This document shows positions 4,301-7,163 of a DNA stretch of 64,000 nt, in pieces. Each line of letters begins with the position of its first letter. Position 1 is the first letter of the stretch. Source of the DNA: Escherichia coli (lineage in GTDB: Bacteria > Pseudomonadota > Gammaproteobacteria > Enterobacterales > Enterobacteriaceae); NCBI RefSeq assembly GCF_030013595.1, contig NZ_CP122768.1; one strand, given 5' to 3'. The position numbers are program-made.

Positions 4301-7163
4301 CTGATTTGGCGCAGTTTTACCTTCAAACGGCACATTCAGGGTGCGACGGACAAAACTTGCCCCACCATCACAGGCCACCAGCCACTGGGCTTTGACCGTT
4401 TCCCGCTGCCCTTCTTCCGTTTTCAGGTGCAAGGTCACTTCGTCATCTTGCTGGCTGAAGGCCTCCAGCTCGCGGGAAAACAGGCAGCGCACATTCGGAA
4501 AACGCGACAATCCTTCCAGCATCACCGCATCGACCTGAGGCTGAATAAAGGCGTTACGGCGCGGCCAGCCAAATTCATCGGTCATTGGCTGAATATCAGC
4601 AAAACAGCGACCTTTCGGGGTGAGAAAACGCATCGCGTGCCACGGCGTAGTGTGCGGCAGAACATTATCGACCAGGCCGACCGACTGCATGGTGCGCAGC
4701 GCCTCGTCATCAATACCAATCGCACGCGGGTAGTCGATCAACTTATCGAGTTTCTCCACCACCAGCACGTCAATGCCCATCTGGCCGAGATAGTTCGCCA
4801 TCATCAGCCCGACCGGACCGGCACCAGCGATCGCCACCTGAACGCTAAGGTTAACAGCAGGCTGGATGTCAGGGTGTTGTATTGCCATTTCAGTACCTCA
4901 CGACTCGGACAAAATGCCGTTGCGCGCACAGTACAGCGCAACTTATTTTGTTAAAAACATGTAAATGATTTTTTATTGTGCGCTCAGTATAGGAAGGGTG
5001 TTTCCGGCTACAATCAAAACATGCCCGAATGTGCACCAGGTGCACAGCGTTGTTTTAACTATAGAAATGTCAATTAATATGCAGAACAATGAGCAGACGG
5101 AATACAAAACCGTGCGCGGCTTAACCCGCGGTCTAATGTTATTAAATATGTTAAATAAACTTGACGGCGGTGCCAGCGTCGGGCTGTTGGCGGAGCTCAG
5201 CGGCCTGCATCGCACCACTGTGCGGCGACTGCTGGAGACGCTGCAGGAAGAGGGATATGTCCGGCGTAGTCCCTCCGATGATAGTTTTCGTCTGACCATC
5301 AAAGTGCGGCAATTAAGCGAAGGATTTCGTGACGAACAGTGGATTTCTGCACTGGCGGCCCCACTGCTGGGCGATCTGTTGCGCGAAGTGGTATGGCCGA
5401 CAGATGTGTCCACCCTGGATGTTGATGCAATGGTGGTACGCGAAACCACCCATCGTTTCAGCCGATTATCTTTTCACCGGGCAATGGTCGGGCGACGGTT
5501 ACCGCTTCTGAAAACCGCCTCGGGCCTGACCTGGCTGGCCTTTTGCCCCGAACAAGAACGCAAGGAATTAATCGAGATGTTAGCCTCCCGCCCCGGTGAT
5601 GACTATCAACTGGCACGGGAACCGTTAAAACTGGAAGCCATTCTGGCGCGGGCGCGCAAAGAGGGGTACGGACAGAACTACCGCGGCTGGGATCAAGAAG
5701 AAAAGATCGCCTCTATTGCCGTACCGCTGCGCAGTGAACAACGGGTGATTGGCTGTCTGAATCTGGTGTATATGGCGAGCGCAATGACCATTGAACAGGC
5801 AGCGGAAAAGCATCTTCCGGCGCTGCAACGGGTGGCAAAACAGATCGAAGAAGGGGTTGAATCGCAGGCTATTCTGGTGGCCGGACGGCGAAGCGGCGTG
5901 CATTTACGTTGACACCATCGAATGGCGCAAAACCTTTCGTGGTATGGCATGATAGCGCCCGGAAGAAAGTCAATTCAGGGTGGTGAATGTGAAACCAGTA
6001 ACGCTATACGATGTCGCAGAGTATGCCGGTGTCTCTTATCAGACCGTTTCCCGCGTGGTGAACCAGGCCAGCCACGTTTCTGCGAAAACGCGGGAAAAAG
6101 TGGAAGCGGCGATGGCGGAGCTGAATTACATTCCCAACCGCGTGGCACAACAACTGGCGGGCAAGCAGTCGTTGCTGATTGGCGTTGCCACCTCCAGTCT
6201 GGCCCTGCACGCGCCGTCGCAAATTGTCGCGGCGATTAAATCTCGCGCCGATCAACTGGGTGCCAGCGTGGTGGTGTCGATGGTAGAACGAAGCGGCGTC
6301 GAAGCCTGTAAAGCGGCGGTACACAATCTTCTCGCGCAACGCGTCAGTGGGCTGATCATTAACTATCCGCTGGATGACCAGAATGCCATTGCTGTGGAAG
6401 CTGCCTGCGCTAATGTTCCGGCGTTATTTCTTGATGTCTCTGACCAGACACCCATCAACAGTATTATTTTCTCCCATGAAGACGGTACGCGACTGGGCGT
6501 GGAGCATCTGGTCGCATTGGGTCACCAGCAAATCGCTCTGTTAGCGGGCCCATTAAGTTCTGTCTCGGCACGTCTGCGCCTGGCGGGCTGGCATAAATAT
6601 CTCACTCGCAATCAAATTCAGCCGATAGCGGAACGGGAAGGCGACTGGAGTGCCATGTCCGGTTTTCAACAAACCATGCAAATGCTGAATGAGGGCATCG
6701 TTCCCACTGCGATGCTGGTTGCCAACGATCAGATGGCGCTGGGCGCAATGCGCGCCATTACCGAGTCCGGGCTGCGCGTTGGTGCGGATATCTCGGTAGT
6801 GGGATACGACGATACCGAAGACAGCTCGTGTTATATCCCGCCGTTAACCACCATCAAACAGGATTTTCGCCTGCTGGGGCAAACCAGCGTGGACCGCTTG
6901 CTGCAACTCTCTCAGGGCCAGGCGGTGAAGGGCAATCAGCTGTTGCCCGTCTCACTGGTGAAAAGAAAAACCACCCTTCCGCCCAATACGCAAACCGCTT
7001 CTCCCCAGGCGTTGGCAGATTCTTTAATGCAGCTGGCGCGACAAATTTCCCGACTCGAAAGCGGGCAGTTAGCGCAACGCAATTAATGTGAGTCAGCTCA
7101 CTCATTAGGCACCCCAGGCTTTACACTTTATGCGTCCGGCTCGTATGTTGTGTGAAATTGTGA

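What the first reader, a model, noticed from the sequence alone, without database searches (positions are those of the whole stretch)
7060..7090. lacI stop codon lost (TGA to TTA): LacI extended by 5 residues, ending inside the lacZ CRP site
Seen: ...CGA CTC GAA AGC GGG CAG TTA GCG CAA CGC AAT TAA, so the ORF is 365 codons and stops at TAA 7084-7086. Established: K-12 lacI ends ...GGG CAG TGA, and the same nucleotides form auxiliary operator O3 with the CAP site immediately downstream. Inference: the tetramerisation helix gains a tail LAQRN; the same substitution alters O3 and lets ribosomes run to the edge of the CRP site.
Basis: partly seen in the sequence, partly recalled or inferred. Interest (0 to 1): 0.5.

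Follow-up and report, generated by a model that had tools for sequence, protein, structure and literature searches.

The report
lacI stop-loss SNP that hits O3
One real base change, carried by a rare E. coli lineage, removes the lac repressor's stop codon (adding five residues) and also damages the weak auxiliary operator O3 that overlaps it, but the predicted effect on lactose regulation is small.

Summary
Window 7069-7071 reads TTA where other E. coli have the lacI stop TGA (G>T at 7070). lacI (GTG 5989) runs 365 codons to TAA 7084-7086 and gains the tail LAQRN.

It is not an assembly error. The exact 365-aa protein (WP_074398049.1) is on at least 105 public contigs, and carriers differ by 0-12 SNPs over 17-21 kb. 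The allele is rare: 2 of 5426 complete E. coli genomes, against 5287 with TGA and one of the two common flanking sequences. It was absent from one metagenome scan. Everything else in lacI matches a common allele (WP_000805911.1).

The same base is position 7 of O3 (7064-7084), inside the GTGAGC core that LacI reads. Published in-vivo energy matrices give +3.8 to +7.0 kBT, a loss of affinity of 44-fold or more. A published looping model then predicts O3 occupancy falling from about 0.4 to 0.02 or less. Repression would fall only about 1.5-fold. That loss could be offset, because O3 also roadblocks lacI transcription (about 3-fold autoregulation).

The tail lies beyond the tetramerisation helix and is probably harmless. 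The ribosome/CRP idea has no mechanistic support. This is a neat natural O3 knock-out of modest interest. Nothing was tested experimentally.

The parts
5989..7086 (+). lacI coding sequence: GTG start, 365 codons, then TAA. Apart from the tail, the protein is identical to the common allele WP_000805911.1. It differs from K-12 LacI by 5 substitutions: D132N, T141A, A331P, R340Q, V353I.
   Evidence: NCBIfam NF007075, 618 bits against a cut-off of 340; Pfam PF00356 plus Peripla_BP families
7070..7070 (+). The G>T transversion. It is the second base of the ancestral stop codon TGA and also position 7 of operator O3.
   Evidence: alignment of 8 lineages; 30-mer allele counts; the only difference from MEI003 between window 5715 and 7152
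7069..7083 (+). Five added sense codons, TTA GCG CAA CGC AAT, encoding Leu-Ala-Gln-Arg-Asn (residues 361-365).
7084..7086 (+). New stop codon TAA. It is in frame, 15 nt downstream of the old stop, and present in all 8 E. coli sequences aligned here. It overlaps the last base of O3 and the first three bases of the CRP site.
7064..7084 (+). Auxiliary operator O3, reading GGCAGTTAGCGCAACGCAATT here (K-12: GGCAGTGAGCGCAACGCAATT). Its centre, 7074, is at -82 from the lacZ transcription start.
   Evidence: sequence; O3 sequence as printed in PMC6375646; energy matrices
7084..7105 (+). CRP (CAP) site of the lac promoter, TAATGTGAGTCAGCTCACTCAT, centred at -61.5. The central T>C relative to K-12 (7094) is shared by all 7 non-K-12 sequences aligned.
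   Evidence: site definition from established knowledge of the lac promoter
7120..7149 (+). lac promoter: -35 TTTACA at 7120-7125 and -10 TATGTT at 7144-7149. Transcription starts at 7156.
   Evidence: sequence compared with K-12; promoter elements from established knowledge
7156..7176 (+). Main operator O1, AATTGTGAGCGGATAACAATT, identical to K-12.
7557..7577 (-). Auxiliary operator O2, AAATGTGAGCGAGTAACAACC, an exact match inside lacZ (centre +412).
7194..12250 (+). lacZ (7194-10268, 1024 aa), lacY (10320-11573, 417 aa) and lacA (11639-12250, 203 aa). All three ORFs are intact, so the operon shows no sign of decay.
5925..5953 (+). lacI promoter: -35 GCGCAA at 5925-5930 and -10 CATGAT at 5948-5953. 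It is the source of the transcripts that O3-bound repressor roadblocks.
   Evidence: sequence; promoter assignment from established knowledge, not tested here

Best explanation
A single, real G>T transversion at window 7070 is fixed in one rare E. coli lineage, and it does two things because lacI's last codons and operator O3 share the same DNA. (1) It turns the stop TGA into TTA (Leu). Translation continues for five codons to a conserved in-frame TAA, giving LacI-LAQRN of 365 aa. The tail follows Gly359-Gln360 at the end of the tetramerisation helix and is out of the Leu342/349/356 heptad register. It is most likely a short disordered appendage that leaves the repressor working. (2) It changes G7 of the GTGAGC core in the left half-site of O3, which is base pair 4 from the dyad and is read by recognition-helix residues Tyr17 and Gln18. 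This should weaken an already weak operator 44-fold or more, so O3 is functionally close to deleted. Two consequences follow by inference. The O1-O3 loop is lost, costing about 1.5- to 2-fold in repression per repressor, with the O1-O2 loop still present. The O3 roadblock that truncates lacI transcripts, and the SsrA tagging that follows, are also lost. Uninduced LacI should therefore rise toward the roughly 3-fold higher induced level, which largely restores repression. Shown here: the sequence, its rarity, its presence in many independent assemblies, and its position in O3. Inferred: the affinity loss, the regulatory consequences and the harmlessness of the tail.
For: Sequence and ORF. Independent assemblies. 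Rarity: TTA in 2 of 5426 complete genomes, TGA with K-12-type O3 in 4261, TGA with the G16A O3 in 1026; 0 metagenome hits for TTA against at least 120 for TGA. Conservation: the stop and O3 core are TGA and intact in Escherichia sp. E1V33, Escherichia sp. MOD1-EC7003, Pantoea conspicua and Leclercia adecarboxylata, although their flanks vary. Ancestry: lacI is otherwise identical to MEI003 and C4, with zero other differences between 5715 and 7152. Affinity: the in-vivo Sort-Seq matrices of Barnes et al. 2019 give +3.79 kBT for G>T at this position with the O1 reference and +6.97 kBT with the O3 reference. The left half-site carries the stronger sequence preference. Base pairs 4 and 5 are the most important for repressor-operator affinity. 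Model: my re-implementation of the Saiz and Vilar 14-state model, with their published parameters, gives repression 1255 to about 820 at 15 nM repressor, O3 occupancy 0.38 to 0.014, and about 1190 with 3-fold more repressor. [quoted passage not shown] O3-bound LacI roadblocks lacI transcription, truncated transcripts lead to SsrA tagging, and the autoregulated LacI level is about one third of the induced level. O1, O2 and lacZYA are intact.
Against: Nothing here measures binding, LacI level or beta-galactosidase. The O3-reference matrix is noisy, and the authors say that weak sites give less reliable matrices. The matrices also assume additivity. The near-exact compensation by higher LacI follows partly from how the published models were parameterised. 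No solved LacI structure carries a C-terminal extension, so the claim that the tail is harmless rests on the sequence register and on remembered reports of functional C-terminal LacI fusions. The allele's persistence in a diversified lineage shows that it is tolerated, not that it does anything.
Confidence: 0.65

Rival explanations
1. Neutral hitch-hiker. The SNP is real but has no measurable molecular or physiological effect, because O3 is so weak and so redundant with O2 that a further loss of affinity is invisible, and the tail is inert.
For: [quoted passage not shown] The model predicts at most about a 1.5-fold change, which could be compensated. The allele has persisted while carriers accumulated 0-12 SNPs per 17-21 kb. 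The neighbouring variants at 5967, 7155 and 7202 are ordinary polymorphisms shared with other lineages.
Against: O3 and the stop codon are close to invariant. 5287 of about 5383 complete genomes with lacI carry one of only two 30-mers, both with TGA and G7. Other genera also keep them. This argues for constraint on this base. The published matrices place it among the costliest positions. O3 has a second role, lacI autoregulation, that O2 cannot replace.
Confidence: 0.25
2. Adaptive rewiring. Loss of O3, and with it lacI autoregulation and SsrA-dependent turnover, was selected in this lineage to hold LacI constantly high. That would lower basal lac cost and give a different response threshold.
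For: Semsey et al. model autoregulation as a trade-off between quick response to small lactose pulses and production cost, so removing it shifts that balance. The SNP is the only change private to this lineage in the lacI-lacZ control region, on a lacI haplotype that is otherwise common.
Against: There appears to be a single origin, with all carriers closely related, so there is no parallel evolution. Frequency is very low. The allele was not found in one metagenome scan. The predicted effect is small. No phenotype data exist.
Confidence: 0.12
3. The tail is the active part. LAQRN perturbs the four-helix bundle or LacI stability, giving a partly dimeric or less abundant repressor and leaky, constitutive-like lac expression.
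For: Tetramerisation depends on residues 339-360, and its loss strongly reduces in-vivo repression. No solved structure shows that a C-terminal extension is tolerated.
Against: The heptad leucines are intact and the tail begins after Gly359-Gln360. Leu361 is out of register (356 + 7 = 363). The tail ends in the polar residues Gln-Arg-Asn, unlike the apolar LAA-type C-terminal degrons. From memory, LacI with peptides fused to its C terminus still binds operator (Cull et al. 1992, 'peptides on plasmids'); this was not verified here. Loss-of-function lacI alleles usually arise by more drastic mutations, whereas this lineage keeps every other lac element intact.
Confidence: 0.08
4. Sequencing or assembly artefact at 7070.
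For: The two complete genomes come from one study and one site and are near-identical: 5,270,553 and 5,270,552 bp.
Against: The exact protein is present on at least 105 contigs from several sources and submitters, and in six draft assemblies read here from different projects.
Confidence: 0.01

Closest known systems
The K-12 lacI 3' end / O3 / CAP-site arrangement (textbook lac control region)
   Same: Same genes, order and spacing: O3 centre at -82, CRP site at -61.5, O1 at +11, O2 at +412. O1 and O2 are identical to K-12. O3 matches at 20 of 21 positions and the CRP site at 21 of 22.
   Different: The TGA stop embedded in O3 is TTA. LacI is 365 aa rather than 360 aa, and G7 of O3 is T.
Engineered O3-destroyed lac control regions (Oehler et al. 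1990 and 1994, as summarised in PMC2241893 and PMC3711431)
   Same: The predicted functional state is the same: O1 and O2 present, O3 not occupied. Those constructs show only a minor loss of repression. My memory of the 1990 figures is about 1300-fold falling to about 700-fold; the paper is not held in the library.
   Different: This is a natural single-base change in the chromosome, in cis to lacI, so it also removes the stop codon and the O3 roadblock on lacI itself. As I recall, the engineered constructs supplied the repressor in trans.
LacI autoregulation by the O3 roadblock, with SsrA tagging of truncated LacI (Abo et al. 2000; Sellitti et al. 1987; Semsey et al. 2013, PMC3711431)
   Same: It concerns the same overlap of the lacI 3' end with O3. 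This is the mechanism the SNP is predicted to disable.
   Different: The published work describes the wild-type circuit. No natural allele lacking it has been described in the papers I could search.
The natural O3 variant G16A (GGCAGTGAGCGCAACACAATT) of ST131 and related strains
   Same: It is another natural single-base polymorphism inside O3, found in 1026 of 5426 complete genomes.
   Different: It lies in the right half-site and leaves the stop codon untouched. It is predicted to strengthen O3 by about 1.4 kBT, the opposite direction to the SNP studied here.
LacI C-terminal peptide fusions ('peptides on plasmids', Cull et al. 1992; recalled from memory, not verified here)
   Same: Extra residues appended after Gln360, with operator binding retained.
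   Different: Those fusions are engineered, longer, and expressed from plasmids. Here a 5-residue tail arises naturally by stop loss.

Membership tests
LacI, the lactose operon repressor (LacI/GalR family) | N-terminal LacI-type HTH domain plus a periplasmic-binding-protein-like core | tested here: met
   NCBIfam NF007075 at 618 bits (cut-off 340), covering residues 1-355. Pfam PF00356, PF13407, PF00532 and PF13377 are on record for the product.
LacI, the lactose operon repressor (LacI/GalR family) | Orthology with E. coli lacI: synteny mhpR-lacI-lacZYA and near-identity to K-12 LacI | tested here: met
   355 of 360 residues are identical to K-12, and all 360 to WP_000805911.1. Gene order is shown.
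LacI, the lactose operon repressor (LacI/GalR family) | C-terminal heptad-leucine helix (residues 339-360) that makes the tetramer | tested here: inconclusive
   Leu342, Leu349 and Leu356 are present; R340Q and V353I are shared with the common allele. Whether the appended LAQRN affects the bundle cannot be tested with these tools, and the PDB holds no precedent.
LacI, the lactose operon repressor (LacI/GalR family) | Canonical length of 360 aa, ending ...LESGQ-stop | tested here: not met
   365 aa, ending ...LESGQLAQRN.
lac auxiliary operator O3 | Position: 21 bp centred at -82, 92 bp upstream of the O1 centre, overlapping the lacI 3' end | tested here: met
   Window 7064-7084 with centre 7074; transcription start at 7156; O1 centre at 7166.
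lac auxiliary operator O3 | Sequence GGCAGTGAGCGCAACGCAATT with an intact GTGAGC left half-site core | tested here: not met
   20 of 21 positions match, but the mismatch is G7>T inside the core.
lac auxiliary operator O3 | Bound by LacI, forming the O1-O3 loop and roadblocking lacI transcription | not testable with these tools
   Prediction only: +3.79 or +6.97 kBT and modelled occupancy falling from 0.38 to 0.014 or less.
Stop-loss (C-terminal extension) allele | Ancestral stop replaced by a sense codon, with the ORF ending at the next in-frame stop | tested here: met
   TGA is the state in 5287 complete genomes and in related genera. The window has TTA, and the next stop is TAA 15 nt downstream.
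CRP (CAP) site of the lac promoter | TGTGA-N6-TCACT centred at -61.5 | tested here: met
   TGTGA at 7087-7091 and TCACT at 7098-7102. The only difference from K-12 is the central T>C at 7094, which is common to the natural isolates aligned.

The most novel reading that the evidence does not exclude
The SNP is a naturally selected, single-base deletion of O3 function. It abolishes both the O1-O3 loop and the roadblock/SsrA autoregulation of lacI, converting the lac circuit of this lineage to constitutively high repressor. If so, this lineage is a ready-made natural test of what O3 and LacI autoregulation are for.
Probability: 0.12. Interest if true: 0.5.

Novelty: new variant of a known kind. 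Interest (0 to 1): 0.28.

Why it matters
The reason the lac operon keeps the very weak operator O3 inside the end of lacI, and what LacI autoregulation by the O3 roadblock is for, has been studied mostly with engineered constructs and models. This lineage offers a natural isolate in which one base is predicted to switch O3 off while leaving O1, O2, the CRP site, the promoter and lacZYA intact. Comparing it with its TGA sister allele (for example MEI003 or C4, which have identical LacI apart from the tail) would test those models in a wild genetic background. The expected effect is small and the system is the best-known in bacterial genetics, so this is a tidy natural variant rather than a discovery. 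It also shows that the in-frame TAA, shared with the O3/CRP boundary, limits any lacI stop-loss in this background to a five-residue extension.

Tried and rejected
1. Assembly error. Rejected: many independent assemblies carry the base.

2. A cluster of private regulatory mutations. The lineage also differs from its nearest lacI relatives at 5967 (lacI leader), 7155 (-1 of the lac promoter) and 7202 (lacZ M3I). 30-mer counts and the alignment show these are shared polymorphisms: 50 genomes, O157/ST131, and at least 98 genomes respectively. They reflect a recombination mosaic with a break near 7153. Only 7070 is private.

3. A second origin of the TTA allele. In the GTDB species representatives, no lacI 3' end had anything other than TGA. 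The exact-protein look-up can only find this LacI background, so origins on other backgrounds outside the complete genomes are not excluded.

4. Ribosome/CRP interference. Rejected as a mechanism: CRP binds DNA, and cAMP-CRP neither roadblocks lacI transcripts nor alters the roadblock products.

5. Primary papers. Abo et al. 2000 and Oehler et al. 1990 are not held in the library, so I relied on open papers that summarise them.

6. Other literature and structure searches. Searches for the LAQRN tail or a natural lacI stop-loss found nothing relevant. A search for the Romanuka et al. 2009 O3 structure work found nothing held. The PDB has no LacI chain extended past residue 360.

7. Structure prediction. 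Not run: a monomer model would not address the four-helix bundle.
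Full report
**1. What is in the sequence**

Window 5989-7086 is lacI. It lies between mhpR (upstream) and lacZYA (downstream), as in every E. coli.

The last codons read CGA CTC GAA AGC GGG CAG TTA GCG CAA CGC AAT TAA. The codon at 7069-7071 is TTA. K-12 MG1655 and six other E. coli lineages aligned here have TGA at that position.

From the true GTG start at 5989 the ORF is 365 codons and stops at TAA 7084-7086. The protein ends ...SRLESGQLAQRN.

**2. Is it real?**

Yes.
- The window is 100% identical over 25 kb to two complete RefSeq genomes, HCP5S3_I2 and LCP30S3_I5 (pig faeces, Winchester UK). 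PGAP annotates a 1098-nt lacI there, giving protein WP_074398049.1.
- Those two genomes are effectively one strain, so they are weak replication on their own.
- The exact 365-aa protein is indexed on at least 105 contigs, in 143 blocks of the collection, from NCBI, Logan and UniRef (A0A2S8JSU5).
- The draft assemblies I could read differ from the window by 0-5 SNPs over 7-17 kb, and from each other by up to 12 SNPs over 21 kb.

The base is reproducible. The carriers form one related but not identical clade, not a single outbreak clone. Recombination could inflate those SNP counts, so I give no date for the clade.

**3. How common is it?**

I used 30-mers in which every 28-nt BLAST seed must cover position 7070, and searched 5426 complete E. 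coli genomes.

| Allele | Genomes |
|---|---|
| TTA | 2 |
| TGA with K-12-type O3 | 4261 |
| TGA with O3 carrying G16A (...CAACACAATT, ST131 type) | 1026 |

- About 5383 genomes carry lacI, so roughly 95 have some other 30-mer. I did not resolve those.
- A metagenome scan found no TTA allele.
- Among GTDB species representatives, the genuine lacI 3' ends all keep TGA and an intact O3 core, although their flanks vary. These are Escherichia sp. E1V33, Escherichia sp. MOD1-EC7003, Pantoea conspicua and Leclercia adecarboxylata.

The base is strongly conserved, and the T allele is a rare polymorphism confined to one lineage.

**4. The background it arose on**

- Apart from the tail, the protein equals WP_000805911.1, the allele found in strains C4 and MEI003.
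- Against MEI003, window 5715-7152 has no difference except 7070. On both sides of that block, divergence is 1-2%.
- The lineage is therefore a recombination mosaic whose lacI segment is a standard haplotype, and 7070 is a new mutation on it.
- The other nearby differences are shared with many unrelated genomes. They are 5967 in the lacI leader, 7155 at -1 of the lac promoter, and 7202, which gives lacZ M3I.
- O1 (7156-7176) and O2 (7557-7577) are identical to K-12.
- The CRP site differs from K-12 only by the central T>C (7094), which all the natural isolates aligned share.
- lacZ, lacY and lacA are intact.

**5. What the base does at the DNA level**

- O3, as printed by Barnes et al., is GGCAGTGAGCGCAACGCAATT. 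In the window it occupies 7064-7084, centred at -82 from the transcription start at 7156.
- Position 7070 is G7 of O3, inside the GTGAGC core of the left half-site. Counted from the dyad it is base pair 4.
- Base pairs 4 and 5, read by Tyr17 and Gln18, are described as the most important for repressor-operator affinity. The left half-site carries the stronger sequence preference in vivo.
- The published Sort-Seq energy matrices give +3.79 kBT for G>T at this position (O1-reference matrix) and +6.97 kBT (one O3-reference replicate). That is a 44-fold to about 1000-fold loss of affinity.
- The O3-reference matrices are noisy, as the authors themselves note, so I treat 44-fold as the conservative figure.

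**6. Predicted regulatory consequences (inference)**

I re-implemented the 14-state looping model of Saiz and Vilar with their published parameters. It reproduces wild-type repression of about 1255 at 15 nM repressor.

| Condition | Repression | O3 occupancy |
|---|---|---|
| Wild-type O3, 15 nM repressor | about 1255 | 0.38 |
| O3 weakened by 3.79 kBT, 15 nM repressor | about 825 | 0.014 |
| O3 "deleted" (+5 kcal/mol), 15 nM repressor | about 815 | about 0 |
| O3 weakened by 3.79 kBT, 45 nM repressor | about 1190 | 0.030 |

- The weakened O3 is practically indistinguishable from a deleted one. [quoted passage not shown]
- O3 has a second role. Repressor bound there, through the O1-O3 loop, roadblocks RNA polymerase coming from the lacI promoter. 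That produces truncated, stop-less lacI transcripts whose products are SsrA-tagged and degraded. As a result the uninduced LacI level is about one third of the induced level.
- With O3 unoccupied this autoregulation should disappear and LacI should sit near the high level.
- With 3-fold more repressor the model returns about 1190-fold repression, close to wild type. This near-compensation depends on the model's parameters.
- The net prediction is little change in steady-state repression, a higher and non-autoregulated LacI level, and possibly altered induction dynamics.

**7. The protein tail (inference)**

- Residues 339-360 form the amphipathic helix of the four-helix tetramer bundle.
- The heptad leucines 342, 349 and 356 are intact. 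The tail starts after Gly359-Gln360.
- Leu361 is out of register, since the next heptad position would be 363, which is Gln.
- The new C terminus, Gln-Arg-Asn, is polar, unlike apolar C-terminal degradation signals.
- From memory, LacI tolerates peptides fused to its C terminus (Cull et al. 1992). I could not verify this in the held library.
- No PDB chain extends past residue 360.
- I judge the tail probably harmless, but this is the least supported step.

**8. The ribosome and CRP-site idea**

- The new stop TAA (7084-7086) is the last base of O3 plus the first three bases of the 22-bp CRP site (7084-7105). In that sense the title's "ending inside the CRP site" is literally true.
- I see no mechanism by which 15 more translated nucleotides on the mRNA would affect CRP on the DNA.
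- lacI transcripts that escape the roadblock cross this region in K-12 as well.
- cAMP-CRP neither blocks these transcripts nor changes the roadblock products.

**9. Comparison with what is known, and verdict**

This is the textbook lac control region carrying one natural base change. That change is equivalent to the engineered "O3 destroyed" constructs, but it sits in cis to lacI and also removes the stop codon.

The allele is catalogued in RefSeq and UniRef as an ordinary LacI. I found no paper that mentions it. Natural variation in this region has otherwise been surveyed.

I classify it as a new variant of a known kind. It is real and rare, and informative about how lacI and O3 share sequence, but its predicted effect is small. 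Interest: 0.28.

Noticed in passing
window 7079 equivalent (O3 position 16); seen in L005 (ST131 strain 2822) and 1026 complete genomes: A common natural O3 variant, GGCAGTGAGCGCAACACAATT (G16A), makes the right half-site read AATTGTG like O1. The published matrices predict about 1.4 kBT stronger binding, and the looping model gives about 2-fold higher repression and O3 occupancy of about 0.7. These lineages may therefore have a noticeably stronger O3 than K-12.
   Followed up: partly
window 7202: lacZ codon 3 is ATA (Ile) instead of ATG (Met), giving MTIITDSL... This is not private to the lineage: the 30-mer occurs in at least 98 of 5426 complete genomes.
   Followed up: partly
window 7094 and 7155: At two control-region positions, natural isolates differ from K-12. 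At the centre of the CRP site, all 7 non-K-12 sequences aligned have C where K-12 has T. At position -1 of the lac promoter the base is polymorphic: A in the window, O157:H7 and ST131; G in K-12, C4, strain 550 and HB42.
   Followed up: no
window 5715-7152 versus flanks (compared with L161, strain MEI003): This is a recombination mosaic. The whole of lacI is identical to MEI003 except at 7070, while the mhp side and lacZ from 7153 onward diverge by 1-2%. One break falls in the lac promoter, within about 85 bp of the stop-loss SNP. The nearest complete genome other than the two pig isolates is only 98.5% identical over the first 25 kb.
   Followed up: partly
window 5967: G>A in the lacI mRNA leader (GGAAGAGAGTC to GGAAGAAAGTC). 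It is shared with 50 complete genomes, including strain 042 and O139:H1 pig strains. Its effect on lacI expression is unknown.
   Followed up: partly
loci L014, L015, L019, L020, L023, L027, L031, L032, L035, L037 (and L016): GTDB species-representative assemblies of unrelated organisms contain lacI-3'/lac-promoter DNA that matches K-12 base for base over the stretch printed. The organisms include SAR11, Streptomyces, Raphidiopsis, Candidatus Omnitrophus, Alicyclobacillus plasmid and Psychromonas. This is almost certainly cloning-vector contamination. L016 (Lamprocystis purpurea) has TGTAAGTTAGCTC followed by non-lac sequence, which I recognise from memory as the L8 CAP-site mutation and a pET-type vector junction.
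   Followed up: no
loci L030 (Escherichia sp. MOD1-EC7003) and L033 (Leclercia adecarboxylata): In these relatives the in-frame backup stop downstream of lacI is changed: CAATAAATGTGAG and CAATTACTGTGAG instead of CAATTAATGTGAG. A stop-loss there would run on further than five codons. The stop TGA and the O3 core are nevertheless conserved.
   Followed up: no
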